A stretch of 64,000 nucleotides of DNA, from the NCBI GenBank assembly GCA_020073185.1, contig JAIQFT010000011.1, positions 11,765 to 75,764 on the forward strand, in the 5' to 3' direction. Positions 7,552 to 64,000 of this stretch are shown one piece after another. This DNA comes from Terriglobia bacterium. Its GTDB lineage: Bacteria; Acidobacteriota; Terriglobia; Terriglobales; Acidobacteriaceae. The position numbers and the translations under genes were made by a program. Position 1 is the first letter of the stretch. Every line of letters begins with the position of its first letter. The notes under the pieces are model-generated. The model saw nothing but the letters and a program-made list of their open reading frames with translations. It searched no databases and was not told the origin of the DNA.

Positions 7552-7591
7552 ATTAGAAGAATTTAATCCCCATCTAATTTCCGTTTAATCC
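7552..7591 (+). promoter_or_regulatory. Putative response-regulator box 2 (second copy)
   Basis: ATTAGAAGAAT followed by TTTAAT (7562), TCTAAT (7573) and TTTAAT (7584). Spacing is identical to box 1. Confidence 0.55.
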
Positions 7592-7770
7592 CGCGATGCG
7601 ATGGTGTGTGGCGTCAGCCGGGGCAAAGCGCTCTGCCTCCCAGGGAAAGAGCGTGAACCCTGGTTTGCGTTTGATGACGGATGCGCTGATTCCCAGGCTC
7701 AGATCAGGCCTTCAAGTCAACCGCAGCACGGCAATTCAGGATTCGCACCAGCCCAGTGAAGGAGGGCGAG

Positions 7771-11000: not shown

Positions 11001-12368
11001 TGGGAGTACGTGTGGCATTGCCACATCCTCGGCCACGAAGAGATGGACATGATGCGGCCGATCAACACGTTTGTGTCACGTGCGTTCCCGCTTGCCCCGT
11101 CCGTGGGGTACACGCGCGACACAGCGGTCAATCTGACTTGGACGGACGGCACTCTTGTGGACTACACCACCCCCGCCAATTGGGGGAGTCCGAGCAACGA
11201 AATCGGCTACCAAATCCAGCGGGCTGCCGTTGCCAAAAACGGCAAGCCTGGCGCGTACTCGGTAGTCGGGAGCGCCCTCGCCAACCAAACCACCTTCTCG
11301 GACACCACGGCCGTTGCGACCTCGACGTACAGCTACCGCGTCGTGGCCTTCAACGCCGCCGGTGCCACGACCTCGGCCCCCATCACGGTGCTACCGGGGA
11401 GCATAACCTCGATGACCGTGAGCACGACATCGCTAACGTTTGGGAACCAACTGGTGGGCACCACTAGTGCAGGTCAGAAGGTGACGCTCACCAACACGGG
11501 CAATACGACGATCCAGTTCTCCAGCATCACCTGGAGTGCTAACTTCTTCGATGCCCAAAACTGCACTCCGAGCCTGGCGCCTGGCAATAGCTGCACCATC
11601 AACGTGCGGTTCCAACCGGCGCTCGCCGCAACGGGCCCGCAGAGCGGGCTACTGACGATCACGGACTCGGTTCCGGGAAGTCCGCAAACCGTCTCGTTGA
11701 CCGGTACGGGCACCATTCCGATTCTGGGTGTGTTGCCAACATCACTGGTGTTCAACTCACCGTTGAACGTCACCAGTGGTGCTCAGACGGTGACTGTTAG
11801 CAACACGGGAACCGCCCCGCTGGTGATCAACAGCATCACCGATTCCACTAACCAGTTCGCCCATACGACCACTTGCAAGACGGGTGCGGCGAACGCGCTG
11901 GCCCCGCTCACTGGATCCTGCACGGTCAGCGTTACGTTCAGGCCGACGACGGCAACGACGCCGAAGGCCGCGACACTGAATGTAAACGTCGCAGCTCCTG
12001 CAACCTCGGGGGCAGTGGTCCTGACCGGCAACGTTACTGTGCCGACCTTCACGGTGTCGCCTGCTTCGCTGGCCTTCGGCAACTGGTCGGTAGCAGGGGG
12101 CAACAGCCCAGCTCAGACGGTCACTGTGACTAACACAGGAGCCGCCCCGCTGGTCATCAGCAGCGTCCCTCTCGGAGGGGCGAACCCCGGCCAGTTCAGT
12201 CGTACCAACGCCTGTCCGGGAACCTTGGCGGTAGGCGCGCCCCCCTGTACTATCACCGTCAGATTCAATCCAACTTCGGCAGGCGCCAAGAGCGCTACCT
12301 TGACTGTGAACGTTGCAGCTCCGGCTGTCACAAAGCCGCCTGTAACGTTGAGCGGCACGGGCAACTGA
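8046..12368 (+). CDS. Giant secreted multicopper oxidase with Fn3 and three choice-of-anchor-D-like beta-sandwich repeats
   Basis: Signal peptide MKKIIGFALLFLLGTLAYG. Copper motifs HLHGG, YHDHAWG, HPIHFHLFN and WHCHILGHEEMDMM. Fn3-like segment at ~11.1-11.4 kb. Three ~105-aa repeats (LTFGNQLVG..VTLTNTG..) at ~11.4-12.36 kb. The ORF-track start at 7596 is rejected. Confidence 0.9.
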   Translation: MKKIIGFALLFLLGTLAYGQCLPPVVGGVPKTIGPGSAPDYFNCANWATSPLPLRSCSNLSATPCYGDLECALLTDATGAPAVCSGPIVSGGIPKFVDPLPGLGVPAGTVGPVTTGGDPLGKYIPVAVADIATYPGSDYYEIGLFEYFETLHSSLPPTKLRGYIQLNNGTNTACLPVNGGPGCTTADNTVAPNAFPHYLGPTILSQRDRPVRILFRNMLPANDAGGSLFVPVDTTYMGSGMAPDMGGMIEMDMGVTTDGARNPMCGRIPKPAGCFTENRATLHLHGGITPWISDGTPHQWITPAAETRAYPDATLLPGKTKNEGVSVFNVPDMPDPGKGAQTFFYTNQQSARLMFYHDHAWGITRLNVYAGEAAPYVVTDATEQALMAPGGPLDGLGYGIPLVIQDKTFVPPPEQLATEDPTWDATRWGGFGSVWVPHVYMPAQNPGDVTGVNGFGRWFYSSWFWPPSTPFFPPINNPYFDPACDANVSGWCEPPLIPGTPNLSSGMEAFNDTPLVNGTAYPTFTLPTAGEYRFRILNAANDRFFNLQWYVADPTGKEVALDASLVAAAQLDPNVFPTPDTTISPAGPAWIQIGTEGGFLPAPVVILNQVMTWVTDPTRFDWGNGDKHSLLLAPAERADVVVDFGPYAGKTLILYNDAPAAFPARVASYDYYTGAPDQTDAGGAPSTQPGFGPNTRTIMQVVVPGAAGSPAPNLYNTARLAALQAAWAHHLDPVTGAPAGVFESSLDPIIVAQGAYNSAYGITFNRLPPRDGYARIADMSMTFNTLLTGNSSTNTMTMAFQNKGLHDETNAAVFDDYGRMSANLGLEAPGATPLTQNIILYPYINPPTEFIAGIELPTGSLKVDPISSNADGTQIWKLTHNGVDTHPIHFHLFNVQLLNRITWDNRILPPDANELGWKDTVRVSPLEDTIVALRPIVPKIPFGVPDSVRPLDPSNPIGSTHGFNSTDTLGNPISPVLSNVPTNFGWEYVWHCHILGHEEMDMMRPINTFVSRAFPLAPSVGYTRDTAVNLTWTDGTLVDYTTPANWGSPSNEIGYQIQRAAVAKNGKPGAYSVVGSALANQTTFSDTTAVATSTYSYRVVAFNAAGATTSAPITVLPGSITSMTVSTTSLTFGNQLVGTTSAGQKVTLTNTGNTTIQFSSITWSANFFDAQNCTPSLAPGNSCTINVRFQPALAATGPQSGLLTITDSVPGSPQTVSLTGTGTIPILGVLPTSLVFNSPLNVTSGAQTVTVSNTGTAPLVINSITDSTNQFAHTTTCKTGAANALAPLTGSCTVSVTFRPTTATTPKAATLNVNVAAPATSGAVVLTGNVTVPTFTVSPASLAFGNWSVAGGNSPAQTVTVTNTGAAPLVISSVPLGGANPGQFSRTNACPGTLAVGAPPCTITVRFNPTSAGAKSATLTVNVAAPAVTKPPVTLSGTGN

Positions 12369-12383
12369 AACCTGTAAACCTGT

Positions 12384-12417
12384 GGGGGAGGGGGTAACAT
12401 CCTCCCCCCTTTTTTTG
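12384..12417 (+). terminator. Rho-independent terminator after the oxidase gene
   Basis: GGGGGAGG..taacat..CCTCCCCC followed by T7. Confidence 0.8.
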
Positions 12418-12459
12418 CGTGTAATATAACCACCATCTCGGTGCATAGGAGGGGTCGCA

Positions 12460-13158
12460 ATGGCAGTCCGACGGGTCATGGCAGTCTTGATAATACTGTT
12501 TGCGGTAGTTGCTGCCGCGCAGGATGCTTCGCCGCTGAAGAACGCAAAGGACAAGCGCAGTTACGCGCTTGGCATGGACCTGGGAAACCAGCTTCACTCG
12601 CTGGGGATTGAGCTGGACCCGGCAATCTTCAGCCGAGGGCTCAGCGACGCTCTTTCCGGCGGCAAAACACTGCTCACGCAGGAGGATGTCCGCGCCGCCA
12701 TTTCCGAACTGCAGGCCGAGATGAAGCGCAAGCAGGCGGAGGCCCGGAGTAAAGCCGCACAGGACGGCAAACAGACGGGGGCGGCGTTCCTGGCCGACAA
12801 CAAAAAGAAGGAAGGGGTGGTGACCCTGCCCAGCGGCTTGCAATATAAGATCCTCAAGGAAGGCACTGGGAAGAAGCCTGCGCTCGACGACACCGTAGTC
12901 TGTCAGTACCGGGGCACGCTGGTTGACGGCACCGAGTTCGACAGCTCCTACAAGCGCGGCCAGCCCGCCACCTTCCCGGTCAAGGGAGTCATCAAGGGCT
13001 GGACCGAGGCTCTGCAGCTGATGCCGGTGGGCTCGAAGTGGCAACTGTTCATTCCTCCCGAGTTGGCCTATGGCGAAACGGGTGCCGGCGGAACGATTGG
13101 CCCGAACGCGACGCTGATCTTCGAGGTGGAACTGGTCTCGATCCAGGCCAAACCTTAG
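12460..13158 (+). CDS. FKBP-type peptidyl-prolyl isomerase (FkpA/Mip-like), secreted
   Basis: Signal peptide, then an N-terminal dimerisation helix. FKBP core: LPSGLQYKILKEGTG...GTLVDGTEFDSSY...GVIKGWTEAL...LIFEVELV. Confidence 0.92.
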   Translation: MAVRRVMAVLIILFAVVAAAQDASPLKNAKDKRSYALGMDLGNQLHSLGIELDPAIFSRGLSDALSGGKTLLTQEDVRAAISELQAEMKRKQAEARSKAAQDGKQTGAAFLADNKKKEGVVTLPSGLQYKILKEGTGKKPALDDTVVCQYRGTLVDGTEFDSSYKRGQPATFPVKGVIKGWTEALQLMPVGSKWQLFIPPELAYGETGAGGTIGPNATLIFEVELVSIQAKP

Positions 13159-13387
13159 GGAGGGTCTGATTGACTCCGGTTTTTGAAGTCCGTAAGTGCC
13201 GCAAAAAGAATACGGCTTTAGCCACCGAGGGGCTGTCGACGTGCTTGATCAGAGCTTCCTTAGGAGACCATCCGGAATTAGTGCGACGCCGATCGCGGCT
13301 ACAGTTATTTTTTAAACTATTCCAACCTCGATTCTCGCGCCATGTCTGCCACGCCAGATTGAGGTGAGATAATGGGAAGGTCGGAAC

Positions 13388-13464
13388 GGCCCTGTAGCTC
13401 AGATGGATAGAGCAGCGGTTTCCTAAACCGCTTGTCGGCAGTTCGAATCTGCCCAGGGCCTCCA
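13388..13464 (+). tRNA. tRNA-Arg (anticodon CCU)
   Basis: Cloverleaf read by eye: acceptor GGCCCTG/CAGGGCC, anticodon stem GCGGT/ACCGC with loop TTCCTAA, T-arm GGCAG-TTCGAAT-CTGCC, encoded CCA. Confidence 0.9.
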
Positions 13465-13550
13465 GTTTTTCCTCGCCAGAGTCGTTTTGTGTTGTTCCGC
13501 TCTCGGTGTACCATCCAGAATTCCCAGGCTTGAACTGCGGAGGTTTTCCT

Positions 13551-15341
13551 GTGCAGAGCCATCGTTGGCTGGTCAGCCTCGCTATCGTCCCCGTTGTTTT
13601 GGCGGCGGGATACCTCCTGTTGGCGCAGCAGCCCTCGCCCGACGCCGTCACCCCGGCGGTCCGCATCACCACACGGCTGGTCGTGCTGGATGTGATCGCC
13701 ACCAGCAAGGATGGCACGCCCGTCACCGACCTCAAAGCCGACGATTTCACGCTCGAAGACAGCGGAAAGAAACAGAAGATCGCGATCTTTAGCCTGGAGA
13801 CTCCGGTGCCGCCCAGCGCCCTGCCGTCGCTGCCCCCGAATATCTTCAGTAACCGGCCGGAATACACCATGCCGTCCGGCCCCTTGACTGTCCTCCTCAT
13901 CGATGCCCTGAATACCCCCTTTACCGACCAGTCGCAAGCCCGCATGGAACTGATCCGCTATGCGGCGACGCAGGTGAAACCCGGTCAGCAAACCGCGGTG
14001 TACGCGCTCGGCAACCGCCTGTACAAGCTGCAGGACTTCACCAGCGATCCGCAGGTGTTGAAGTCGGCCATCGAGGCATTCCACCCGGTATCTCTCCCCC
14101 AGCATGGATCGACGATGGCCCCGCTTGACACGAGTTCCGCGGCAGCGGCGACGGGAGCGGCCGCCGGCCTGCATGGCCTGTCGAATGCGTCGGCAGCCGC
14201 CATTGCCATCATGTCGCAATTTCAGGCCGAGCAGGCCACTCCCATGCTCGAGAACCGCATAGGTACTACCTTGGCCGCCATGACCCTGATTGCTCGGGAA
14301 CTCGCTGGAAGACCAGGAAGAAAAAACCTGGTCTGGGTGACTGCCGGGTTTCCTGTCAGCCTGGATCCGGTGACCAATGAAACCACGTTTGTTCCCATGG
14401 CCCGGGATGCCCGGGGAGGCGAGCCGCTTCCCCAGGAGCAAACCTACGCGGCGTACAACCAGCAGGTGCGGCAGGAAACCAGCGAGGGCGTGCGGCGCAC
14501 GGCCGCCTTGCTGACCGATGCGCAGATCTCCATCTATCCCGTCGACGCCCGCGGTCTGATCGGTGCGATAGGGATCAGCGACGCCAGCAGTAAGGGGACG
14601 AGCGGCGGCTTGTTGCGGATCGGTAATGACTATGGCCAGACGGTCGCCGCGTCCAGTTCAAGCATGCTTGATTCTCAGGCGAGCATGGTTGAAATCGCCG
14701 ACGAGACTGGCGGCCGCGTTTTCAAGAACCGCAACGACGTTGATAACTGCGTTGCCACCGCCGGCGGCGACGGCGGCACCTACTACACCCTCGGCTATTA
14801 CCCCGGCAGGAAGAAACAGGACAATCAATTCCACAAGTTCTCCGTCAGGGTCAAGCGGCCGGGGGTTCAGCTTCGCTATCGCCGTGGTTACTTTGCGGTC
14901 GAACCGGGCAAGTCTTCCGCCAAGGAAAAGGACGCCGAGCTTATGGGCACGCTCTACAGCAGCAATTTGCAGTCCACCATGGTGCTCTTCGACGCCCAGA
15001 TCGTTCCTCCCGCGCCCGCAGCCAAGGCGCAACTGCCCGTCCGCTTTTTAGTCAGGCCGGAAAGTATCGCCACGGAGGAGGACAAGGGTGGCGTTAGGCT
15101 CGATCTGGATTTTGTGGTGGCGGCGTTCTCTCCTGACGGCAAACTGGCCGCCCGAGAAGGGAAGACGGTAGCTACCACCATCGATACGGCTCAGTATGCG
15201 CAAGTGAAACAGCGCGGGCTCCTGGTGCCGGTTGAGATTGACCTCTCGCCCGGCGAATACCAGTTGCGGCTCGCCGTTCGTGACAATCTTACCGGCTACC
15301 TCGGCACGCTGACGGCACACCTGAATCTGCCGAAGCCCTAA
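13551..15341 (+). CDS. VWFA-related acidobacterial-type domain protein (TIGR03436-like)
   Basis: Family-typical N-terminus: ITTRLVVLDVIATSKDGTPVTDLKADDFTLEDSGKKQKI. GTG at 13551 is preceded by GGAGG. The ORF-track start at 13506 remains possible. Confidence 0.85.
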   Translation: MQSHRWLVSLAIVPVVLAAGYLLLAQQPSPDAVTPAVRITTRLVVLDVIATSKDGTPVTDLKADDFTLEDSGKKQKIAIFSLETPVPPSALPSLPPNIFSNRPEYTMPSGPLTVLLIDALNTPFTDQSQARMELIRYAATQVKPGQQTAVYALGNRLYKLQDFTSDPQVLKSAIEAFHPVSLPQHGSTMAPLDTSSAAAATGAAAGLHGLSNASAAAIAIMSQFQAEQATPMLENRIGTTLAAMTLIARELAGRPGRKNLVWVTAGFPVSLDPVTNETTFVPMARDARGGEPLPQEQTYAAYNQQVRQETSEGVRRTAALLTDAQISIYPVDARGLIGAIGISDASSKGTSGGLLRIGNDYGQTVAASSSSMLDSQASMVEIADETGGRVFKNRNDVDNCVATAGGDGGTYYTLGYYPGRKKQDNQFHKFSVRVKRPGVQLRYRRGYFAVEPGKSSAKEKDAELMGTLYSSNLQSTMVLFDAQIVPPAPAAKAQLPVRFLVRPESIATEEDKGGVRLDLDFVVAAFSPDGKLAAREGKTVATTIDTAQYAQVKQRGLLVPVEIDLSPGEYQLRLAVRDNLTGYLGTLTAHLNLPKP

Positions 15342-15368
15342 TACGGCCGAGCGCAGATAGCCGCTGTT

Positions 15369-16208
15369 TCAGAAGCAGGGCGCATCGCACTTGATGCGCA
15401 CGCGCCATTTGCCTGCCTGTCTCTGCGTACCGATAGCGGCCACTTGGCCCATGATCACCCGGTCCTTGGCAAATATCAGTCGCACCGTCGTGCCGGGTTC
15501 CACCAGATCACGCAGCAGCGCGGTCGCCTCATCGGGTCGCGTGAACACGATGTCCACGTTCTCCGTCAACGGCATACGAATCGCCGACATTCCTGTCACC
15601 ACGGCGGGCATGGTTCGTGTGTCCGTCTCATCGCCCAGCCCGACCGCCGGCGCGCCACGGGGTATGATGCGCAGTTCAATGGGAGGCATGGCGCCGAGCG
15701 CTTCGGTGGCTTGCGGTGCCGCCGTCGTATGCTGCGTTGGTGGCGCCGTTGTCTTTTGCCATCGCCCATCCTCGCCCGTTTTGCTGGGAAAATGTACCCC
15801 CCAGAAATTGTTCGGGTCGTCGAGTTCGATCCCGCAGTGCGGTTCAGCGGTTTTGTCCAGCCAGACCACGCGCGCCGTCTGGGGCTGCCGGCCTGTCCGG
15901 ATGGCCACCCGCATCCGTTCCCCGCAAGCCAGTTTCTCGCTTACGCTGATGATCCGAATCTTGGCTCCATGCTTGCTGACGCTGACGGTTTCGGCTTTCA
16001 GCACTATATTGCCGACATGGATGGTGAGGGGGATCTTCAGCTTGATGCGTTCACTTCTGCGCTTGCCAGATCGAGTAGCGATTCCTGCGACTCCGGGGAT
16101 CGGTGGCATATTTTCCATCATTGCCCTAGGCTGACGCCGGCACAAGTAACCAAAGAGCAAGGATGTTTGGCTATCGTCCCGAGCCGAGGCTGGGGTTCGG
16201 TGTTCCAT
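15369..16208 (-). CDS. PilZ-domain protein
   Basis: c-di-GMP motifs RRSER (RxxxR) and SVSKHG (xSxxG). The start codon is uncertain, with several in-frame Met codons. Confidence 0.6.
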   Translation of the reverse strand: MEHRTPASARDDSQTSLLFGYLCRRQPRAMMENMPPIPGVAGIATRSGKRRSERIKLKIPLTIHVGNIVLKAETVSVSKHGAKIRIISVSEKLACGERMRVAIRTGRQPQTARVVWLDKTAEPHCGIELDDPNNFWGVHFPSKTGEDGRWQKTTAPPTQHTTAAPQATEALGAMPPIELRIIPRGAPAVGLGDETDTRTMPAVVTGMSAIRMPLTENVDIVFTRPDEATALLRDLVEPGTTVRLIFAKDRVIMGQVAAIGTQRQAGKWRVRIKCDAPCF

Positions 16209-54516: not shown

Positions 54517-55671
54517 ATGAAGACCGGCATTAATGCAACACTGGATCCGAACCGCCGCGGTGGCGACGCGCTGGATTTCGAAAATGCTCTCCGCCGCAAA
54601 ATCGTGGGACAAGATGCCGCCGTCGACCGGGTCGCCGAAATTTACCAGATGTTTCTCGCCGGCCTGAACCCGCCGGGACGTCCGATGGGAAACCTGCTCT
54701 TCCTGGGCCCGACCGGTTCGGGCAAGACGCGTGTGGCGGAGTCGGTGGCGGAAGCCCTCTTCGGAGACGCGCGCGCCTGTATCAAGATTGACTGCGCCGA
54801 GTTCCAGCACTCTCACGAAATCGCAAAACTGGTCGGATCTCCCCCGGGATACCTCGGCCATCGCGAGACGCATCCGCTGCTCACCCAGGAAGCGCTCAAC
54901 CAGTGGCAGACCGAAAAGCTGAAGCTCTCGCTGCTGCTGTTCGACGAAATCGAGAAGGCTTCCGACGCGCTCTGGCAATTGCTGCTCGGCATCCTCGACA
55001 AGGCCACGCTCACTCTGGGCGATAACCGGCGCGTGGATTTTTCCAGCTGCATCATTATGATGACCTCCAACCTCGGCGCCGGCGAAATGAACGAGCTCAT
55101 GCTGGGCGGCATGGGGTTCGCGCCGAAGCCGATTGCCATCGACAATAAGTTCGACGAGAGGATCAACCGCAGCGCGGTGGAAGCGGCGCGGCGTAAGTTC
55201 TCCCCCGAGTTCATGAACCGCATTGACAAGGTGGTGGTCTTCAAAACTCTGCGTCCAGAGCACCTGGAGCGCATCCTGGAGATCGAACTCGGCATGGTGC
55301 AGCAGCGCATTCTGCAGTCCACGGGCAACAATCAGTTCGTCTTCTCCTGCACCTCCAAGGTGAAGCAGTTCGTGTTGCGCGAGGGTGCCGACCCGAAGTA
55401 CGGCGCGCGCCATCTGAAGCGCGCTATCGAGCGCCATGTCGTGTTCCCGCTGGCCAACTTGGTCGCCACCGGCCAGATCAAGCTCGGCGACTTCGTGCGC
55501 ATTGACATGAACCCCGACGGCCGCATGGTCTTCGTCAAGGAAGCCGAGGGCGCGCTGGTGCCGGTGCTGTTGGAGAAGTACGGCCCCGAGTTTGTCACCC
55601 CGACCGCCGCGCGCGCCACCCGCGCCGCAGCGCGCCGTGAAATGGGCGCTCCCTCCCTGGGCGATAAATAA
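54517..55671 (+). CDS. Stand-alone AAA+ ATPase resembling the ClpA/ClpB D2 module (AAA_2 + ClpB_D2-small)
   Basis: IVGQDAAV, Walker A GPTGSGKT, Walker B LLLFDEIEKA, sensor/arginine regions and GARHLKRAIE. No N-domain, D1 or M-domain. Confidence 0.88.
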   Translation: MKTGINATLDPNRRGGDALDFENALRRKIVGQDAAVDRVAEIYQMFLAGLNPPGRPMGNLLFLGPTGSGKTRVAESVAEALFGDARACIKIDCAEFQHSHEIAKLVGSPPGYLGHRETHPLLTQEALNQWQTEKLKLSLLLFDEIEKASDALWQLLLGILDKATLTLGDNRRVDFSSCIIMMTSNLGAGEMNELMLGGMGFAPKPIAIDNKFDERINRSAVEAARRKFSPEFMNRIDKVVVFKTLRPEHLERILEIELGMVQQRILQSTGNNQFVFSCTSKVKQFVLREGADPKYGARHLKRAIERHVVFPLANLVATGQIKLGDFVRIDMNPDGRMVFVKEAEGALVPVLLEKYGPEFVTPTAARATRAAARREMGAPSLGDK

Positions 55672-55900
55672 TTCTTTTCTTACGGGTCGTGACGAAAACG
55701 CCGCCCTTTTCGCGCTACCTTCGCAAAGCGGCCTGGATTCCCGCCTCCGCGCACCCAATGCGCGCCGCCGTACTGCGCTCGCATCGTCACATTTCTTCCG
55801 TATGTACCAAGACGGTATCTCCCTCTGCGAACAAACTCGGGGTTATCTTGTGCCACAGGCGACGCCAGTGCAGGGCTGCTTGCGGAGGTTCGCGGCCAAG

Positions 55901-58438
55901 ATGGAGCGTTACGTCTGTGTTCATTGCCACTTCTACCAGCCACCGCGCGAAAACCCGTGGTTGGCGGCGATCGAGTCGCAGGATTCCGCCTCTCCCTACC
56001 ACGACTGGAACGAGCGCATCGCCGCCGAGTGCTACGCGCCCAACAGCGCCTCGCGCATTCTCGACGGGCAGGGACGGATCGCAAAAATCACCAACAACTA
56101 TTCGCGCATCAGTTTCAACTTCGCTCCTACGCTGCTTTCCTGGCTGGAAGAGAAGGCGCCGTGGACCTACGAGCAGATTCTCGCCGCCGATCGTCAAAGC
56201 CGGGAATTGTTTTCCGGGCATGGCGCCGCCATGGCGCAAGCCTACAACCACCTGATCCTGCCGCTGGCCAGCCCGCGCGACAAATACACCCAAGTCCTTT
56301 GGGGCATGCGCGACTTTCAGCACCGCTTCGGGCGCGATCCGGAAGGCATGTGGCTGCCGGAGACGGCCGTGGACGTCGAAACCCTGGAGTGCCTAGCCGC
56401 GCTCGGGATTAAGTTCACCATCCTGGCGCCGCATCAGGCGCAGCGCTGGCGCAGCCGGCCCTGGGACGAATGGACCAACCTTGATGGCGGGGCCATCGAT
56501 CCCACGCGCGCCTATCAATGCAACCTGCCCTCCGGCCGGGCCATCAGCCTGTTTTTCTACGATGGCCCCATCGCGCACGCCGTCGCCTTCGAAAAACTAC
56601 TCTTCAATGGCGAGAATTTCGCGCGCCGCTTGCTCACTGGCTTCAATGACGGGCGGAACTGGCCGCAGCTGCTGCACATCGCCACCGATGGCGAGACCTA
56701 CGGTCATCATCATGCGCGCGGCGACATGGCTCTGGCCTACGCGCTCGATTACATCGAACGCCATCGCCTAGCCCGCCTGACCAATTACGGCGAATATCTC
56801 GCTCAGCATCCTCCCACCCAGGAAGTGGCAATCGTGGAGAAGACGTCCTGGAGTTGCGTGCACGGCGTCAGCCGCTGGGAAGCCGACTGCGGCTGCAATT
56901 CCGGCACTACTTCCTGGAACCAGCAGTGGCGCCGTCCCCTGCGCGACGCGCTGAACTGGCTGCGCGACCATTTGGCGCCCCTCTACTATTTGCAGGCGCA
57001 GCCGCTCTTGCTCGACCCCTGGGCCGCGCGCGATGACTACATCCGCGTCGTGCTCGATCGTTCTCCCTGGAATGTCGATGATTTTCTGGCCCGGCACGGC
57101 TTTCCCGGGCTGTCCCGCGAACAGCAGGTACGCGCTCTGAAGCTGCTGGAAATGCAGCGCCACCTCATGCTGATGTTCACCAGTTGCGGCTGGTTCTTCG
57201 ACGAGCTGACCGGCCTGGAGACGGTACAGTCGCTGCAATACGCCGGCCGCGCCCTGCAGCTCGCCCAGGATCTGCTGGCCGTCGATCCCGAGGAAGAATT
57301 TCTCCGCCGCCTGGAGCAGGCTTGGAGCAACATCCCCGGTTTCGGCAACGGCCGCCAGGTTTACGAACGCTTCGTTCGCCCGGCTATGCTTAACTTGGTG
57401 GAAGTGGGCGCGCACTACGCCATCAGTTCGCTCTTCGACGGTTATCGCGGGCGCAGCTACGCCTACTGCTACAGTGTGGATTTGCTGGAATCGCGTGTGT
57501 TGGAGTCGGGCAAGGCCAGGCTCGCCATCGGCCGCGCCGAGATCAGTTCACGACTCACCCGCGAGCAGATGACGGTCACCTTCGGGGTGCTCCATTTCGG
57601 CGATCACAACCTCACGGCCGGTGTTCGCCCCTTCTCCGGCGAGGACTCATTCCGTGCCCTGACCGGAACCGCCACGCGCGCCTTCAAGTCGGCCGATCTC
57701 CACGAATGCCTGCGCGTCCTCGACCACCATTTTCCGGGCGCTACCTTTTCGTTGAAATCGCTGTTCCGTGATGAGCGGCGCCGTATCGTCTCGCAAATCG
57801 TGAACTCGACCCTCGGAGAGGCCGAGTCCGTGTACCGCCAGGTTTACGACCAGCATGCCCAGTTGATGTGCTTCCTTTCGGAACTGCACATGCCGCTACC
57901 CGGCATCCTGCGGGTGACCAGCGACTTCGTGCTGGACCGCGCGGTGCGGCGCGCCCTGACCGATCGCGATGTCGACCTGGAGCGCATCCGCACTCTCGTC
58001 GAGACCGCTTCGCGCGATAACGTCCAGCTCGATGTCCCGGCGCTGCAGTTCGCCTTGCGCGAACGCCTGAACGCGCTCGTGGACCAGTGGGCGCTGAAGC
58101 CCGCCGATCGCGATCTGCTGGAGACGGTGGCCGCCGTCGTTTCCCTGGCCCGCGTCCTGCCCTTCGAGGTGGACTTGTGGAAGGTGCAGAATGTTTACTA
58201 CCGCCTGTTGCAGGGAATCTCCGCCGATGCCCTCGCACGCGACACCTCCCCTGCGTGGCTGGAACACTTCCAGCAGCTCGGTGAATGCCTGGGAGTTATC
58301 GTGCCCGACACGGCATTTCTCTGCCCGCGTCTGCCCGGCCAAGTGGACGCGGCTCCCGTGCGCGATGATGCTTGCCGCAGCATGATCGGCTTGTCCACCG
58401 CCGCTCACCGCCGCTACCGCCAATCCCAAAGCCTCTGA
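55901..58438 (+). CDS. Glycoside hydrolase family 57 protein with DUF3536-like C-terminal region
   Basis: HCHFYQPPRENPW start-proximal motif, and the GH57 catalytic-region motifs GMWLPETAVD and IATDGETYGHH. Start set at MERYVCVH. Confidence 0.88.
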   Translation: MERYVCVHCHFYQPPRENPWLAAIESQDSASPYHDWNERIAAECYAPNSASRILDGQGRIAKITNNYSRISFNFAPTLLSWLEEKAPWTYEQILAADRQSRELFSGHGAAMAQAYNHLILPLASPRDKYTQVLWGMRDFQHRFGRDPEGMWLPETAVDVETLECLAALGIKFTILAPHQAQRWRSRPWDEWTNLDGGAIDPTRAYQCNLPSGRAISLFFYDGPIAHAVAFEKLLFNGENFARRLLTGFNDGRNWPQLLHIATDGETYGHHHARGDMALAYALDYIERHRLARLTNYGEYLAQHPPTQEVAIVEKTSWSCVHGVSRWEADCGCNSGTTSWNQQWRRPLRDALNWLRDHLAPLYYLQAQPLLLDPWAARDDYIRVVLDRSPWNVDDFLARHGFPGLSREQQVRALKLLEMQRHLMLMFTSCGWFFDELTGLETVQSLQYAGRALQLAQDLLAVDPEEEFLRRLEQAWSNIPGFGNGRQVYERFVRPAMLNLVEVGAHYAISSLFDGYRGRSYAYCYSVDLLESRVLESGKARLAIGRAEISSRLTREQMTVTFGVLHFGDHNLTAGVRPFSGEDSFRALTGTATRAFKSADLHECLRVLDHHFPGATFSLKSLFRDERRRIVSQIVNSTLGEAESVYRQVYDQHAQLMCFLSELHMPLPGILRVTSDFVLDRAVRRALTDRDVDLERIRTLVETASRDNVQLDVPALQFALRERLNALVDQWALKPADRDLLETVAAVVSLARVLPFEVDLWKVQNVYYRLLQGISADALARDTSPAWLEHFQQLGECLGVIVPDTAFLCPRLPGQVDAAPVRDDACRSMIGLSTAAHRRYRQSQSL

Positions 58439-59534: not shown

Positions 59535-62201
59535 ATGGAACCACTGCCGGCGAGGGAGATCCGCGACTTCCGCGTGCGCGGCAACTACTTCAATCAGCAC
59601 AGCCGGCGCTTTCGCAAGGAGCGGCATTCCGTAACCGAGGTCGCCACCCGTCCGGGATACTGCCCCCCGGTGGTCGAGTTCGACTTGGAAGACGGCGCCA
59701 CCGGCAGCATCGTGGCCAGCGAGATTGATATCCCGCTCCTTTGTCAGGATGATTTTGAGCAGGCGCGAGCCCACCTGGCGCTCATCGTGAACGCCCGCCG
59801 CGGGTACTCGCAGGCCGCCGCCGGGCTCAACGCCGCTCTGCAAAAGTACCCGTGGCTGACCGCGCCCGCCGAACAGCCCCCACCCGCCGAGACCCCCTGG
59901 GTCGTCCCTTGCACCAGCGCCGAGCCGCACTGCGAGCGGGATATCAGTCAAAAAGGGTTCATCCTGTTGAAGCTGGCGCGGCAGGGCTATCCGGTCCCCG
60001 ATTTCGTCGTCGTCACCGCCGACGCCTACACCGAAGGCTTTGCCGACATCGAGCGCCACCTCGCCGACGCCATCGCCCAACTGGAAATCCTCACCATGGA
60101 GTCGCTCGGTTCCGGCGACCCCCTGGTCTTTGCCATCCGCTGCGCCACCCCGCACTACATCCCGGGCGTGATGGACACCTTCCTCAACGTTGGCATCACT
60201 GAGCGTGCCTTGCCGTGCCTGGAGAAGATGTACGGCCCCACCGGCGCGCGCAAAATGTTCCTCAACACGCTGCGCAACCTGTGCGACTGCCTCCTTCAAG
60301 ACCCGGCGCTGGTCAACGCCGTCAGGCCCGATCTCCCGCCGGATCAAGTCGTGCGCCTCATTGATCAGCTATCCGATCGCATCCGGAAAAAAGACCGCCG
60401 TCTCATCGAGGATCCCTATTGCCAGGCCGTCTTCTTCGCCCGGCAAGCGTACAAGGATTTTGAAGAAAACCATGACTTGGTGGCGGCGCTCGGCCGCGGC
60501 ACGGAACATTTTCCCAGCCTCATCCTGCAGAAGATGGTGTGTACGGTGCGCCACGAGAGCGCCTACGCCGGCGTCTTGTCCAGCCGCAACACCCGCACCG
60601 GGGTAGGAGTGGAACTGCAGACCGCCCGCAACATCTTCGGCGAAGAAATGATGACCGGTACGGCGGAGTTCAAAACCACTACCTTCGAAGACAAGCAGGC
60701 AGTGCAGCACACGTTTCCCGCCGTCTATCATTTTCTGCCGCATCTGCCGGAGTTGGAGCGCGAACTGGAGTCGCCGGTCACCATCGAGTTCGCCGTCGAG
60801 GCCACCCGCCGCTACCAGTGGTTCGCGCTGCTGCAACTGAATGAAACCGGCATGGCGGGCGGGGCGGCGCTTATCTCCGTGATTGACATGCACAAATCCG
60901 GCGCCATCTCGCGCAAGCGCGTCACCGAACTGGTCCGTCCTTACCACCTCAAGCAGCTCACCAGCGATACCATCGATCAGGAAAACTTCAGCACGCTCAG
61001 CACCTTCTCCTCCGGCGTGGCCGTCCTGCCTCGCTCCGCCGTCTCGGCCCGCGTGTATTTCACTGGCGACGCTGCCTTGCGCGCCAAGACGCAGGAAGAG
61101 AAGGTCTGCCTCTGCAAGAAAACCTTTGTCCCAACAGACACCGTGGTGATGCGCGAGGTGGACGCCGTCCTCAGCCTGACCTCCGCCGCCGTGCACGTAG
61201 TCACCATTTGCCAGAGCCTTGGCATTCCTGCCCTCCTCAACCTGGAAAAGTATGGCGTTACGCTGCATCCCGACGGCCGCTTGGTGAACTGGTCCGGCAG
61301 TGAAATTCGCGAAGGCGACTGGATCACCATTTCCTCCCGCCGCAACACCGTCTACCAGGGCAAGGCGAAGTTCACTCCCGCCCGCCTCCTGCGCTACATG
61401 AAGGGTGAGCGCATCGCCGAGCAGGGAAGCGAGGTAGAAAAGGAATTCGCCGCCATCGCCTACGCCTATCGCTACTACCAGCAGTTGGTCCGCGGCCTCA
61501 CGGTGGACAAAATCTCCAGCCTCAGCGAGGTCACGCGCCTGGTCAACTTCGAACTCCGCGCCGAGTCCGACGACGCCCGCCAGCTCGTGAACGGCTGGTT
61601 CGATGAGCGCGAGACCGTCTACATGGACGAAGTGCTGAAGAGCGACATCGGCGATCACCTCGGGCAGAGCAACGTCTTCGAAATGCTCACCCTCGACCGC
61701 AAAGTCCGCTTCTTCAAGGCGGCGCTGGCCAAATTGGCGCGCGAACACATCTCCGGCTACGAAGCCGGTGCCTTCATGCTCGGCCGCTTTCTCGCCATGC
61801 GTTATCCCGTCGCCTTCTGGAAAAGCTTTACGCCCTTGGAAATCGCTTTGCTGGTCAACGAGTGGGTGCTGTTTGAAAAATACCTGCAGCTACTGCACAA
61901 CGTGGGCGAGAGAAAAGTCCTGCGGGCGCGCAAGCAGATTCTCAAGGAAGGGCTCGACCAGCTCGCGCTCCATCCTGGCGTTGTGCATTCCCTGATTACG
62001 CTGAAACTGAGCTCCCCGCGCCTGGATCAAGCCCGGGCCGCGCTGCCCGAGTGGAGCGACGCGCAATCGGCGCGCGTGCTGGAACTGCTCCAGCAGCCGT
62101 ATCACGAGTTCTACAATTTCCGCGCCGAATGGTCGGTGGGCGAACTCAAGAAAATCTGCCAGACCGAGGGCCTGCCGCTGCCTTCGCCCGACGACGTGTA
62201 G
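59535..62201 (+). CDS. PPDK/PEP-synthase-like protein: nucleotide-binding N-domain plus swivel domain, no PEP/pyruvate TIM barrel, catalytic His not conserved
   Basis: FAIRCATPHYIPGVMDTFLNVGI aligns to VSVRSGA..SMPGMMDTVLNLGL. IEFAVE..LLQLNETG aligns to IEFT.E..LQTRNGKRT. The swivel-domain motif is LTSAAVHVV instead of GGxTSHAAVVAR. The last ~300 aa are helical and unassigned. Confidence 0.8.
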   Translation: MEPLPAREIRDFRVRGNYFNQHSRRFRKERHSVTEVATRPGYCPPVVEFDLEDGATGSIVASEIDIPLLCQDDFEQARAHLALIVNARRGYSQAAAGLNAALQKYPWLTAPAEQPPPAETPWVVPCTSAEPHCERDISQKGFILLKLARQGYPVPDFVVVTADAYTEGFADIERHLADAIAQLEILTMESLGSGDPLVFAIRCATPHYIPGVMDTFLNVGITERALPCLEKMYGPTGARKMFLNTLRNLCDCLLQDPALVNAVRPDLPPDQVVRLIDQLSDRIRKKDRRLIEDPYCQAVFFARQAYKDFEENHDLVAALGRGTEHFPSLILQKMVCTVRHESAYAGVLSSRNTRTGVGVELQTARNIFGEEMMTGTAEFKTTTFEDKQAVQHTFPAVYHFLPHLPELERELESPVTIEFAVEATRRYQWFALLQLNETGMAGGAALISVIDMHKSGAISRKRVTELVRPYHLKQLTSDTIDQENFSTLSTFSSGVAVLPRSAVSARVYFTGDAALRAKTQEEKVCLCKKTFVPTDTVVMREVDAVLSLTSAAVHVVTICQSLGIPALLNLEKYGVTLHPDGRLVNWSGSEIREGDWITISSRRNTVYQGKAKFTPARLLRYMKGERIAEQGSEVEKEFAAIAYAYRYYQQLVRGLTVDKISSLSEVTRLVNFELRAESDDARQLVNGWFDERETVYMDEVLKSDIGDHLGQSNVFEMLTLDRKVRFFKAALAKLAREHISGYEAGAFMLGRFLAMRYPVAFWKSFTPLEIALLVNEWVLFEKYLQLLHNVGERKVLRARKQILKEGLDQLALHPGVVHSLITLKLSSPRLDQARAALPEWSDAQSARVLELLQQPYHEFYNFRAEWSVGELKKICQTEGLPLPSPDDV

Positions 62202-62202
62202 A

Positions 62203-62445
62203 GCAGTTCAGAGCAGTTCCGCAATCGGTGTCGCTGCATGTCCTACGGTGGAAAGCGCCGGCCTTCGATCCGTTTCATCTTTTCTGCAGCCGATGTCATC
62301 CCGAGCGAGGGAGGGCTCCCGCGCGTTTTCGTAACCGGGGTCCCCGGCACGCCTGCTTTTGGCGTGCTGGGCTGGCCGTGCGCGGGAAACCTGAGTCGAG
62401 GGATCTCTGGGTTTCCTCTCTCGGCTACACCAATTCTGACACTGT
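62203..62445. repeat. Dispersed intergenic repeats filling the convergent gap
   Basis: GAGCAGTTCAGAGCAGTTCCGC, CTACGGTGGAAAGCGCCGGCC, GTCATCCCGAGCGAGGGAGGG and TGAGTCGAGGGATCTCTGG elements. Confidence 0.7.
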
Positions 62446-62446
62446 C

Positions 62447-63991
62447 CTAGACCCGCACTCCGTTCGGCTCCCTAACCGCCGCCGCTTGCTTGACCCCGTA
62501 CAGATAATCGCGGTCAATGGTCGATTCCATCTCGCGCAGCACCTCGGGCAACTCTTTGCCGTCACGCGCCGCCACCAGCCTCCCCAGTGCCAGCGACAAT
62601 GACAGCACCGCGTTCATGCCCAGGTTCGCCTTCCTCTGCATGATCTGGATTCTGTCTTCGGCCAAGGCGCTTCCGTTGATCTTTCCGCGCTTGGTCGCCA
62701 AGTCCAGCTCCATCAGCAGCAGTTCGCGATCGATGTCGGTCAGCGTACCCAGCGCGGAAATCTTCTGTCCCAGGAAGCGCGGCGCCACCACCTCGATCAC
62801 GTTCGCCACCGCGTTCAGGCAGCCTTTGCCGCCGTAGCGTTTGGCGCGCATCCACAACTCCGCCAGTTCGGCGTTTTCCTTGGCCACCATCTCGGCCTTG
62901 ACGCTCGGCGCGAAGCGGTAGGTTTTCTCGCTTTCTTTATAGACAAAATAATTCGGGTACTTCCTCGTCAGCGGGTTGGCCTCGATGATGCTGTCCACCA
63001 GGTGAATCGCCTCATCCGTTCCCGCCGAGGTCCCCAGCGGCGTGGCGGCCGAGAATTTCATGCCGTTGTCCAGCATCACCGTTACTCCGACCGTGGGTAT
63101 GCCGGCGTTGGTCGGTTCCTCGTGCGCGAAAATATCGGCGATCCTCATATCCGGGTCCAGCCTGCGCGTGGCTTTCACGCCTTTTTTCGCCAGCTCCATC
63201 AGTTCCACGATCCGGCCGTACTTAACCAGCCGTTCCGTGTTGGCCCCGCCCCCGCATTTCAGGCCCAGGGCGCCCACCGCGAAAGCGATGTCAGCCTCCA
63301 TGACCTCATTGGGCGACTTGGATCGGTGCGAGACCACCAGCGCTAATCCCAAGTCTTTCGCCGTCCGGGTGGCCAGCAGGGTTTCGCTCATGGTGCCGAT
63401 CTGATTGGCTTTGATCAGCGCCGTGTTGATCAACCCCTCTTCGGCGCAGCGGCGGATGGTCGAGTCCTTGGTCGTGACCAGGTCGTCGCCGATGATCAGG
63501 ATCTCCGCGTCCAGCGCCTTCATCAGTTTCTTCCAGCCCTCGTAATCGTCCTCGGCGAAGGCATCCTCCAACGACACGATCGGATACTTCTTCACCCACG
63601 CGATGTACAACTCCACCATTTCGTCGGTGGTCATCACACGGGGATCTTCCGCGCGCCAAAACAGGTATTGCCCGACGGAATCCTTCTCGCCGGTCTTCTC
63701 CCGATATGCGTTGCTCAGTTCGCTGGCCGCCGGGTCGATGGCCAGCACCACGTCGCGGTCGGGCACGAATCCGCATTCCTCGATGGCTCGCACCGCCACC
63801 CGCAGCGCCCGCTCTTCGGGAAGGATGTCGCCTTCCTGCTTGGCGTAGGAGGCGACGATGCCGCCTTCAAGTCCGATGCCCACAAAATTCAGCCCTTCCG
63901 AGTCCTGGATGATCTGGATCGCCCGGCTCTGCAGCATATTGGTGACGCGCTGTGCCTCGATGTAATCGCGCGCCGTGAGCGGTAGGAACAT
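62447..63991 (-). CDS. Enolase-superfamily protein with apparent circular permutation (barrel domain N-terminal, capping domain C-terminal)
   Basis: AGGAG SD before the ATG at 63991. Residues 1-270 align to the enolase barrel (GLEGG, LAIDPAASE, SLEDAF, IGDDL, LIKANQIGT, SHRS, LKCGG). Residues ~283-490 align to the enolase N-domain (GIPTVGVTV, PLGTSAGTDEA, GKGCLNAV, LGMNAVLSLSLA). Confidence 0.85.
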   Translation of the reverse strand: MFLPLTARDYIEAQRVTNMLQSRAIQIIQDSEGLNFVGIGLEGGIVASYAKQEGDILPEERALRVAVRAIEECGFVPDRDVVLAIDPAASELSNAYREKTGEKDSVGQYLFWRAEDPRVMTTDEMVELYIAWVKKYPIVSLEDAFAEDDYEGWKKLMKALDAEILIIGDDLVTTKDSTIRRCAEEGLINTALIKANQIGTMSETLLATRTAKDLGLALVVSHRSKSPNEVMEADIAFAVGALGLKCGGGANTERLVKYGRIVELMELAKKGVKATRRLDPDMRIADIFAHEEPTNAGIPTVGVTVMLDNGMKFSAATPLGTSAGTDEAIHLVDSIIEANPLTRKYPNYFVYKESEKTYRFAPSVKAEMVAKENAELAELWMRAKRYGGKGCLNAVANVIEVVAPRFLGQKISALGTLTDIDRELLLMELDLATKRGKINGSALAEDRIQIMQRKANLGMNAVLSLSLALGRLVAARDGKELPEVLREMESTIDRDYLYGVKQAAAVREPNGVRV

Positions 63992-64000
63992 GAACTCCTG

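What the first reader, a model, noticed from the sequence alone, without database searches (positions are those of the whole stretch)
59535..62201. PPDK-derived protein lacking the phosphohistidine and the PEP/pyruvate barrel
Residues ~150-600 align motif-by-motif to the nucleotide-binding domain of pyruvate phosphate dikinase/PEP synthase (GFILLKLARQGYPVPDF, RCATPHYIPGVMDTFLNVGI, IEFAVE..LLQLNETG). They are followed by a swivel-type domain (VAVLPRSAVSARVYF...EGDWITISS). Where PPDK has GGMTSHAAVVAR, this protein reads SLTSAAVHVVTI (nt 61179-61196), so the catalytic His is absent from its canonical position. The C-terminal PEP-utilisers TIM barrel is replaced by ~300 aa of unassigned helical sequence. 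There is also a ~150-aa unique N-terminal extension. It therefore cannot run the canonical three-step phosphotransfer. It may be a pseudoenzyme or regulator, or a new ATP-grasp activity. Its convergent neighbour is an aberrant enolase homologue, another PEP-related fold.
Basis: partly seen in the sequence, partly recalled or inferred. Interest (0 to 1): 0.65.

Follow-up and report, generated by a model that had tools for sequence, protein, structure and literature searches.

The report
PPDK-derived histidine kinase, new acceptor domain
This gene encodes an uncharacterised relative of pyruvate phosphate dikinase that keeps the ATP site and the phosphate-carrying histidine but swaps the pyruvate/PEP barrel for a new helical domain, and it is genetically paired with an equally undescribed membrane-anchored, circularly permuted enolase.

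Summary
The 888-aa ORF (59535-62201, +) is real. [quoted passage not shown] The PEP/pyruvate TIM barrel is absent: the homology stops where the barrel would start, and residues 612-888 model confidently (pLDDT 92) as an all-helical domain with no PDB or Pfam match. The headline claim, that the phosphohistidine is lost, is wrong. HMMER, MAFFT and hhalign all place H554 in the catalytic-His column after a one-residue deletion. H554 is invariant in 27 members aligned down to ~30% identity, as are ATP-site residues K140, R202, E418 and Q434. The canonical GGxTSH loop is remodelled to S-L-x-S/P-A-A-I/V-H, and PPDK R337 and D321 are not kept. The family is found in at least 181 species-representative genomes from about seven phyla, carries no functional name, and has two paralogous subfamilies. 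Its neighbour is a circularly permuted enolase fused to an M50 membrane module, with every enolase catalytic residue intact. The pair is adjacent in 60 of 68 informative metagenome loci and, in WOR-1, lies inside a glycolysis/gluconeogenesis cluster. Most likely it is an active swivelling-histidine phosphotransferase acting at the 2-PG/PEP node. The acceptor is unknown.

The parts
59535..59900 (+). N-terminal extension (residues ~1-122), absent from PPDK; small alpha/beta domain with invariant D65
   Evidence: PPDK alignments begin only at residues 133-139. AF2 pLDDT is ~83-91 over most of residues 1-110. D65 is invariant in 27 diverse members and in both subfamilies. No Pfam hit.
59901..61016 (+). 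PPDK-type ATP-grasp nucleotide-binding domain (residues ~123-494), including the PPDK-specific helical insert and the linker
   Evidence: TIGR01828 E=4.4e-29; hhalign E=5e-56; Foldseek to PPDK E~1e-19, weaker to RPH, HpeI and PEP synthase. K140=K22, R202=R92, E418=E323 and Q434=Q335 are invariant. T416 (=D321) and N436 (=R337) are not kept.
61017..61367 (+). Swivel (phosphohistidine) domain, residues ~495-611
   Evidence: PF00391 E=1.9e-4 on the isolated segment; PDB 2fm4 (PPDK central domain) E=6e-5; aligned to the PPDK central domain by MAFFT and hhalign.
61173..61208 (+). Remodelled phospho-acceptor loop S547-L-T-S-A-A-V-H554-V-V-T-I; H554 codon at 61194-61196
   Evidence: H554 aligns with PPDK His455 after a one-residue deletion in HMMER, MAFFT and hhalign. 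It is invariant. The canonical GGxT(S/C)H / T/SxxGGxxxH motif (PMC12167813) is not kept.
61368..62198 (+). New all-helical C-terminal domain (residues 612-888) replacing the PEP/pyruvate barrel. Invariant G706, H708, G750, Y783 in 27 deep members; also invariant in the 120-sequence set: G741, A744, G745, F747, F761, W762, E776, G791
   Evidence: AF2 pLDDT 91.9, pTM 0.86, 16 helices and no strands. Foldseek best hits: PDB E=0.31, viral library E=0.53. No Pfam, NCBIfam or PDB sequence hit. Conservation.
62447..64000 (-). 3' two-thirds of the conserved partner gene (full gene 811 aa, runs past the window end): M50/site-2-protease-like membrane module + circularly permuted enolase
   Evidence: Full gene in L001 12913-15348. 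Enolase_C at residues 272-563, then Enolase_N at 582-738, plus weak Peptidase_M50 at the N-terminus. HEIGH motif and hydrophobic segments. All enolase catalytic residues and HExxH invariant in 53 sequences. Adjacency statistics.

Best explanation
The protein is a catalytically competent, PPDK-derived swivelling-histidine phosphotransferase of the dikinase type. It is not a pseudoenzyme.

Inferred mechanism:
1. The ATP-grasp domain binds MgATP.
2. H554 on the swivel domain attacks the beta-phosphate, as in PPDK, PEP synthase, RPH and VadK.
3. The phosphorylated swivel domain rotates onto the new all-helical C-terminal domain.
4. There, a conserved pocket receives the phosphoryl group on an acceptor that is not pyruvate bound in a TIM barrel. 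The pocket is built from Gly-rich helix N-termini plus H708, E776, Y783 and R751.

PPDK R337 and D321 are not conserved. From memory of the C. symbiosum mutagenesis work, these residues are linked to the Pi/gamma-phosphate step. Their loss suggests the enzyme releases Pi rather than PPi, i.e. works as a 'water dikinase' like PEP synthase and RPH.

The enzyme works together with a membrane-anchored M50-fused, circularly permuted enolase that looks fully active. This places its acceptor at or next to the 2-phosphoglycerate/PEP node. The acceptor could be a C3 acid feeding or draining the enolase reaction, or the enolase protein itself.

Shown by sequence and structure prediction: the domain homologies, the conserved residues, the absent barrel, the new fold and the gene linkage. 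Inferred: autophosphorylation, the swivel transfer, Pi release and the acceptor's identity.
For: - PPDK homology over residues 133-621.
- H554 lies in the catalytic-His column by three methods and is invariant to ~30% identity. K140, R202, E418 and Q434 are also invariant.
- The C-terminal domain is folded (pLDDT 92) and strongly constrained, with invariant Gly/His/Glu/Tyr at helix termini.
- The family is full length (~880-900 aa) in at least 181 species representatives across Acidobacteriota, Elusimicrobiota, Deltaproteobacteria-type MAGs, Aminicenantes, Cloacimonadota, Bacteroidales and Saganbacteria/WOR-1. This implies purifying selection on all domains.
- The partner enolase is adjacent in 51 of 80 genome loci, and in 51 of the 55 loci from Acidobacteriota/Elusimicrobiota/Delta-type MAGs.
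- Reciprocally, the gene is adjacent in 60 of 68 informative partner loci.
- The pair occurs with unrelated flanks and in convergent, divergent and co-directional orientations.
- All enolase catalytic residues are invariant in the partner.
- The WOR-1 locus places both paralogues and the enolase beside PPDK, PGK, aldolase, FBPase and iPGM.
- Precedents for barrel-less or barrel-replaced swivel-His enzymes: VadK autophosphorylates on His422 (PMC13400623); RPH and HpeHI use novel acceptor domains (PMC4844700; PMC12167813).
Against: - There is no biochemical evidence.
- The loop that normally positions the His (GGxTSH) is one residue shorter and lacks both glycines. Two PPDK ATP-site residues (D321, R337) are replaced. 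Catalysis at the ATP site could therefore be altered or slower.
- The swivel domain was poorly modelled in the full-length AF2 run.
- No ligand or acceptor can be inferred from the C-terminal fold. Its weak structural neighbours are generic helical repeat/scaffold proteins, which fits a protein-binding role as well as a catalytic one.
- Aminicenantes, Cloacimonadota and Bacteroidales members have no adjacent enolase and no conserved neighbour. Planctomycetota have the permuted enolase without this gene nearby. The coupling is therefore not obligatory.
Confidence: 0.6

Rival explanations
1. VadK-like regulatory autokinase. The protein autophosphorylates on H554 as a read-out of ATP status. Its helical C-terminal domain is a protein-binding module that docks on the M50-enolase partner (or on other enzymes). 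It then phosphorylates the partner or allosterically gates its enolase or intramembrane-protease activity. No small-molecule acceptor is involved.
For: - VadK is a barrel-less PPDK derivative that autophosphorylates and binds metabolic enzymes.
- The gene pair is tightly and reciprocally adjacent.
- The only weak structural neighbours of the C-terminal domain are TPR/14-3-3-type interaction scaffolds.
- The partner carries an S2P-type protease core. Such proteases are typically regulated by cytoplasmic sensor domains (established knowledge of the M50 family).
Against: - The invariant C-terminal residues are Gly/His/Glu/Tyr at helix termini, which looks more like an active site than an interface.
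- Several phyla have the protein with no adjacent partner.
- The Foldseek hits are not significant (E>0.3).
- There is no fusion of the two proteins among ~900 partner homologues. The long forms are enolase duplications.
Confidence: 0.25
2. Pseudoenzyme or pure scaffold. Phosphotransfer is lost and the protein only binds nucleotide or partners.
For: - The canonical GGxTSH loop is degenerate.
- PPDK D321 and R337 are replaced.
- Pfam PPDK_N and PEP-utilizers score below their gathering thresholds.
Against: H554, K140, R202, E418 and Q434 are invariant in two paralogous subfamilies and in ~7 phyla at ~30% identity. Such retention is not expected once catalysis is lost. The remodelled loop is itself invariant: S547, L548, A551 and A552 are invariant in the 7-sequence cross-phylum alignment A3.
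Confidence: 0.05
3. A PPDK/PEP-synthase activity rebuilt with non-homologous parts. There are two versions. Either the helical domain binds pyruvate/PEP itself, or the swivel His delivers or receives phosphate at the active site of the partner's enolase barrel in trans (for example glycerate to 2-PG to PEP in one site).
For: - The partner binds PEP/2-PG by homology and keeps all catalytic residues.
- The permutation and a ~50-aa insertion remodel the N-domain lid that covers the phosphate side of the enolase site.
- The WOR-1 locus is in a glycolysis/gluconeogenesis context.
Against: - WOR-1 already encodes a canonical PPDK next door, so a redundant activity is unlikely.
- The permuted enolase also occurs without this protein in Planctomycetota.
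- The protein also occurs without an adjacent enolase.
- No known enolase accepts a phosphoryl donor.
Confidence: 0.1

Closest known systems
Pyruvate phosphate dikinase (PPDK, EC 2.7.9.1; e.g. C. symbiosum 1DIK/1KBL)
   Same: It is the closest relative by sequence and structure. The ATP-grasp domain, including the PPDK-type helical insert, the swivel domain and the domain order (ATP-grasp, swivel, third domain) are shared. K22, R92, E323, Q335 and His455 are conserved.
   Different: There is no PEP/pyruvate TIM barrel. A ~120-aa N-terminal extension is added. The GGxTSH loop is shortened and lacks Gly and the regulatory Thr. D321 and R337 are replaced. It scores 101 bits against an 843-bit cut-off for TIGR01828.
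VadK (Rv1127c) of Mycobacterium tuberculosis, a barrel-less PPDK-derived histidine autokinase (PMC13400623)
   Same: It is derived from PPDK and has lost the PEP/pyruvate domain but keeps the ATP-grasp domain and catalytic His. It acts with metabolic enzymes rather than as a PPDK. The NCBIfam model for the truncated form (NF004531) matches at E=2e-28.
   Different: VadK is a ~490-aa two-domain protein with nothing after the swivel domain. This family has an extra N-terminal domain and a conserved 277-aa C-terminal domain. Its partner is an enolase, not methylcitrate-cycle enzymes. The score of 99 bits is far below the 456-bit cut-off.
Rifampin phosphotransferase (RPH) and the two-component small-molecule dikinases HpeHI/CreHI/PpsAB
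   Same: The logic is the same: an ATP-grasp domain, a swivel His and a family-specific, non-barrel acceptor domain whose fold had no known homologue when first solved (PMC4844700, PMC12167813). The ATP-grasp domains are detectable by Foldseek at E~1e-6.
   Different: The domain order differs: RPH is ATP-grasp, RIF-binding domain, swivel. There is no sequence or structural similarity to the RIF-binding/HpeH acceptor domain. The ATP-grasp domain is of the PPDK type, not the RPH type.
PEP synthase (PpsA, EC 2.7.9.2) and glucan water dikinase
   Same: These are swivelling-His dikinases that release Pi rather than PPi. The loss of PPDK R337 in this family suggests it may behave the same way (inference).
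   Different: PEP synthase has the PEP-utilizers_C barrel. GWD has starch-binding domains and a different order. The only similarity is a remote structural match (2OLS, E=1e-4).

Membership tests
Pyruvate phosphate dikinase (EC 2.7.9.1) | N-terminal ATP-grasp nucleotide-binding domain with K22, R92, E323, Q335 | tested here: met
   K140, R202, E418 and Q434 align to these residues and are invariant; hhalign E=5e-56.
Pyruvate phosphate dikinase (EC 2.7.9.1) | ATP-site residues D321 and R337 (R337 studied as the R337A mutant, PDB 2DIK) | tested here: not met
   T416 and N436 occupy these columns. The D321 column varies (T, L, M, S, A and others). The R337 column is mostly N, with D or A in some members.
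Pyruvate phosphate dikinase (EC 2.7.9.1) | Catalytic histidine on the central swivel domain | tested here: met
   H554 aligns with His455 in HMMER, MAFFT and hhalign alignments and is invariant. Phosphorylation itself cannot be tested here.
Pyruvate phosphate dikinase (EC 2.7.9.1) | Signature GGxT(S/C)HAA loop with regulatory Thr | tested here: not met
   The family has S-L-x-(S/P)-A-A-(I/V)-H. It is one residue shorter and has no GG and no Thr at -2 (motif definition from PMC12167813).
Pyruvate phosphate dikinase (EC 2.7.9.1) | C-terminal PEP/pyruvate TIM barrel (PF02896) | tested here: not met
   No hit in this protein or in 24 diverse members. The model is all-helical. The hhalign alignment ends at PPDK residue 519.
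Pyruvate phosphate dikinase (EC 2.7.9.1) | Curated equivalog score (TIGR01828, cut-off 843 bits) | tested here: not met
   101 bits.
Swivelling-histidine dikinase superfamily (PPDK/PEPS/RPH/GWD/HpeHI) | ATP-grasp domain + mobile phosphohistidine domain + a separate acceptor-binding domain | tested here: met
   All three modules are present by sequence and structure prediction.
Swivelling-histidine dikinase superfamily (PPDK/PEPS/RPH/GWD/HpeHI) | ATP converted to AMP with His-dependent transfer of the beta-phosphate to an acceptor | not testable with these tools
   Needs an autophosphorylation and product assay.
Rifampin phosphotransferase | Domain order ATP-grasp, RIF-binding domain, C-terminal swivel His; homologous RIF-binding domain | tested here: not met
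   The swivel domain is central, not C-terminal. RPH matches only through the ATP-grasp domain. The C-terminal domain has no RPH match.
VadK / truncated PPDK (NF004531, PRK05878) | Two-domain ~490-530-aa architecture ending after the swivel domain; curated cut-off 456 bits | tested here: not met
   The protein is 888 aa with two extra conserved domains and scores 99 bits.

The most novel reading that the evidence does not exclude
The two genes form a previously unknown two-protein machine at the 2-PG/PEP node. An ATP-charged swivelling phosphohistidine is carried by a PPDK-derived protein with a new acceptor domain. It delivers phosphate to a substrate held by, or channelled to, a membrane-anchored enolase whose circular permutation and S2P-type protease module have no described precedent. 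This would be either a new route into or out of PEP, or a new way of coupling cellular energy state to regulated intramembrane proteolysis.
Probability: 0.15. Interest if true: 0.9.

Novelty: new variant of a known kind. Interest (0 to 1): 0.68.

Why it matters
PPDK, PEP synthase and RPH-type dikinases are textbook cases of long-range phosphoryl transfer by a swivelling domain. Each new acceptor domain found so far has revealed new chemistry: antibiotic inactivation, phenol activation, starch phosphorylation, and metabolic regulation in M. tuberculosis.

This family is widespread. It occurs in at least 181 species representatives and is common in soil Acidobacteriota. It is full length and strongly conserved, yet carries no functional name, and its acceptor domain has no sequence or structural relative.

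Its genetic partner is an enolase that is circularly permuted and fused to an intramembrane-protease-like module, while keeping every catalytic residue. I found no description of it in the literature. In some candidate phyla it appears to sit where the glycolytic enolase would be.

Working out what this pair does could reveal a missing reaction or a control point in the central carbon metabolism of abundant uncultured bacteria. It would also correct annotations that currently call these proteins 'pyruvate, orthophosphate dikinase' and 'enolase'.

Tried and rejected
2. Rosetta-stone fusions:
   - P0145 (1550 aa) has an unknown 816-aa N-terminal part, not an enolase.
   - The 1666-1888-aa enolase proteins are internal duplications, not fusions with the PPDK-like protein.
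3. Anti-phage defence system: no PADLOC hits for either protein.
4. Known fold for the C-terminal domain: Foldseek against PDB and BFVD found nothing below E=0.3. HMMER against PDB, Pfam and NCBIfam found nothing.
5. Degenerate TIM barrel: rejected, because the model has no strands.
6. Conserved neighbours in clades without the adjacent enolase: none were found.
7. Subfamily B next to subfamily A outside WOR-1: not found in the 172 loci held. Two apparent hits were binning artefacts.
8. Other PPDK or enolase paralogues in the window: none.
9. Promoter/terminator scan around the gene: no more sites than in shuffled sequence.
10. Literature searches for a permuted enolase, an enolase-S2P fusion, or swivel domain plus enolase: nothing relevant.
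11. The full-length AF2 model was too uncertain in the swivel and C-terminal regions (pLDDT below 50) to read inter-domain contacts.
12. Whether the partner-less clades encode the permuted enolase elsewhere in the genome could not be settled. Only the top 120 of 901 hits were visible, and none of the named hits came from those clades.
Full report
**1. The object**

ORF 59535..62201 (+) encodes 888 aa. The window has ~61% G+C. The closest proteins come from Terriglobales/Acidobacteriia MAGs. The start codon is supported by homologues that begin at the same Met and share the N-terminal sequence.

**2. Homology to PPDK is real and covers two of the three PPDK domains**

- Pfam's PPDK_N and PEP-utilizers models hit only below their thresholds.
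- Full-length models see the homology clearly:
  - NCBIfam TIGR01828, E=4.4e-29, residues 136-621 against profile positions 17-515 of 865.
  - PDB PPDKs, E=7e-20 with the single sequence and 1.6e-30 with a family profile.
  - hhalign of 24 diverse family members against 7 PPDK hits: probability 100%, E=5.2e-56, 479 aligned columns. All 7 comparators carry PPDK_N and PEP-utilizers, and 5 carry the barrel.
  - Foldseek of the full-length model: PPDKs at E~1e-19, far ahead of the RPH ATP-grasp domain (1.5e-6), HpeI (3e-6) and PEP synthase (1e-4).
- The protein is therefore specifically PPDK-derived, not RPH- or PEPS-derived.

**3. The catalytic histidine is present**

- HMMER, MAFFT with 27 family members and 7 PPDKs and hhalign all insert a one-residue gap before the His. 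This places H554 opposite PPDK His455. The downstream register (H+9 = Gly) is then also preserved.
- H554 is invariant in 31 close homologues, in 27 representatives that reach ~30% identity, and in both paralogous subfamilies.
- The residues aligned to PPDK K22, R92, E323 and Q335 (K140, R202, E418, Q434) are invariant too.
- What truly differs:
  - The His-positioning loop is one residue shorter and reads S-L-x-(S/P)-A-A-(I/V)-H. It lacks the two glycines and the regulatory Thr of the canonical motif (motif as described in PMC12167813).
  - PPDK D321 and R337 are replaced by T416 and N436.
- R337 is a studied active-site residue (PDB 2DIK is the R337A mutant). My recollection that it belongs to the Pi/gamma-phosphate site is from memory, not tested here.

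**4. The barrel is gone and a new domain replaces it**

- Homology to PPDK ends at family column 632 / PPDK 519, where PEP-utilizers_C begins in the comparator.
- Neither this protein nor any of 24 diverse members hits PF02896.
- With a shallow alignment, AF2 modelled this region poorly. With 120 diverse sequences, residues 612-888 gave pLDDT 91.9 and pTM 0.86: 16 helices and no strands.
- Foldseek found no significant neighbour in PDB (best E=0.31, TM ~0.2, generic TPR/14-3-3-type repeats) or in BFVD.
- The domain is strongly constrained.
  - G706 and H708 lie at the N-terminus of a helix.
  - The G741-x-x-A-G-x-F-x-x-G750-R stretch spans two short helices.
  - F761, W762, E776, Y783 and G791 are invariant across 120 sequences.
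  - G706, H708, G750 and Y783 are invariant even in the deepest set.
- Gly-rich helix N-termini combined with His, Glu, Tyr and Arg suggest an anion-binding or phosphotransfer pocket.

**5. The family**

- An exhaustive search of 1.84 billion cluster representatives found about 25 full-length clusters at 50% identity, with 29-64% identity to the query, before canonical PPDKs appear at E~1e-21.
- There are two subfamilies:
  - Subfamily A is ~880-900 aa and has the tail ...PLPxPDD.
  - Subfamily B is ~810-920 aa and has the tail ...DPDPxHKP.
- A pattern scan of GTDB species representatives found 181 genomes. The top 80 are all MAGs, labelled Terriglobia/Acidobacteriota, Elusimicrobiota, Deltaproteobacteria/Desulfurellales, Aminicenantes, Cloacimonadota and Bacteroidales. 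Saganbacteria and WOR-1 appear in other searches.
- Source names are 'hypothetical protein', 'phosphohistidine swiveling domain-containing protein', or automatic 'pyruvate,orthophosphate dikinase'.
- I found no paper on the family.

**6. The partner**

- The convergent neighbour is cut by the window end. In full it is 811 aa.
- It has three parts:
  - An N-terminal hydrophobic region with HEIGH, SAAGP and D-x-G motifs and a weak Peptidase_M50 hit.
  - The enolase TIM barrel at residues 272-563.
  - After the barrel, the enolase N-terminal domain at residues 582-738 by Pfam and out to ~776 in the PDB alignment, with an insertion.
- It is therefore a genuine circular permutation.
- All canonical enolase catalytic and metal residues are invariant in 53 partner sequences. 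In yeast numbering these are H159, E168, E211, D246, E295, D320, K345, H373, R374, S375, K396 and S39. The set includes a Saganbacteria sequence that is only 47% identical. HExxH is invariant as well.
- Literature searches for a permuted or S2P-fused enolase found nothing.

**7. Linkage**

- Three Terriglobia loci with entirely different flanks keep the pair.
- Of the 80 GTDB loci, 51 have the partner within the flank, nearly always immediately downstream and convergent. That is 51 of the 55 loci from Acidobacteriota, Elusimicrobiota and Delta-type MAGs. Of the other four, two contigs end at the gene.
- Reciprocally, of 80 metagenome loci found with the partner as query, 60 carry the PPDK-like gene, 12 have no room, and 8 lack it in the available flank.
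- Orientation varies: mostly convergent, but co-directional in L136 and L162 and divergent in Saganbacteria.
- In WOR-1 the order is: canonical PPDK | subfamily A | subfamily B | permuted enolase | Zn-ribbon | PGK | DeoC-type aldolase | FBPase | ... | iPGM. This puts the module in a glycolysis/gluconeogenesis setting.
- The coupling is not universal:
  - Aminicenantes, Cloacimonadota and Bacteroidales members have no adjacent enolase and no other conserved neighbour.
  - Planctomycetota have the permuted enolase without this gene nearby.

**8. Mechanism**

- The conserved ATP site, the invariant His and the intact swivel domain make ATP-dependent autophosphorylation the most economical reading. 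This activity was shown experimentally for the barrel-less PPDK derivative VadK (PMC13400623).
- By analogy with every characterised member of the superfamily (PPDK, PEPS, RPH, HpeHI), the third domain should hold the phosphoryl acceptor.
- The gene context points to the 2-PG/PEP node.
- I cannot tell whether the acceptor is a small molecule or the partner protein. The phyletic semi-independence of the two genes and the active-site-like conservation pattern lean slightly towards a small molecule. The tight adjacency and the scaffold-like fold lean towards a protein target.
- The pseudoenzyme reading is unlikely. A rebuilt PPDK activity is also unlikely, because WOR-1 has a canonical PPDK next door.

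**9. Comparison and novelty**

- The protein fails the membership tests for PPDK: no barrel, no signature loop, and a score far below the cut-off.
- It fails the tests for RPH (different domain order and acceptor domain) and for VadK (different architecture).
- It does fit the wider swivelling-histidine dikinase superfamily, as a new variant with a new acceptor domain, a new N-terminal domain and a new partner.
- The partner, an S2P-fused, circularly permuted and apparently active enolase, seems undescribed and deserves its own follow-up.

**10. Verdict**

The object is real, widespread, uncharacterised and mechanistically interesting. Interest is 0.68. Confidence in the general mechanism is 0.6. 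The acceptor and the physiological role remain open.

Noticed in passing
window 62447..64000 (-), continues beyond the window; full gene L001:12913-15348 (-): The partner is an 811-aa protein: an M50/site-2-protease-like membrane core (HEIGH, SAAGP, D-x-G motifs), then an enolase TIM barrel, then the enolase N-domain. This is a circular permutation, with all enolase catalytic residues invariant in 53 sequences. I found no literature on such an enolase.
   Followed up: partly
P0379, P0422 (loci L170, L172); P0359-P0366: The permuted M50-enolase family is much wider than the PPDK-like family. It is ~900 aa in Planctomycetota (47% identical over the full length, no PPDK-like neighbour) and 1100-1200 aa in Margulisbacteria/WOR-1/Saganbacteria, with an extra C-terminal ~280 aa.
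   Followed up: partly
P0361, P0365, P0367, P0368 (1666-1888 aa): These are internal tandem duplications of the whole M50 + permuted-enolase unit within one polypeptide (repeat offset ~726 aa in P0365). They are not fusions with the PPDK-like protein.
   Followed up: partly
L171 (WOR-1 bacterium, METM01000021.1) 1-15420: Gene order: canonical PPDK, family-A PPDK-like (892 aa), family-B PPDK-like (836 aa), permuted enolase (1139 aa), Zn-ribbon, PGK, DeoC-type aldolase, FBPase class 3 (PF06874), AAA_14/DUF4143, iPGM. Here the permuted enolase occupies the position of the glycolytic enolase in a glycolysis/gluconeogenesis cluster.
   Followed up: partly
P0155-P0182 and L171:3319-5829: A second, shorter paralogous subfamily (B, ~810-920 aa) has the same invariant residues but a different C-terminal tail, with a conserved DPDPxHKP motif. 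Its genomic context outside WOR-1 is unknown.
   Followed up: partly
P0145 (1550 aa): A family-like region (residues 817-1473, 29% identity) is fused to an 816-aa N-terminal region with no Pfam hit.
   Followed up: no
window 55592..58438 (+) and 54517..55671 (+): Upstream genes are a GH57 + DUF3536 glycoside hydrolase-family protein (called from 56268 in the public gene call) and a 384-aa AAA+ protein with only the ClpB D2 and D2-small domains. Neither is conserved next to the PPDK-like gene in other genomes.
   Followed up: no
L082 (Acidobacteriota MAG) ~11293-13403: The partner enolase gene gives tblastn hits broken into four pieces. This suggests a frameshifted or pseudogenised copy, or assembly errors.
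   Followed up: no
window 62200..62219: A perfect 10-bp tandem direct repeat (agagcagttc x2) begins within the stop codon of the gene. It is probably trivial.
   Followed up: no
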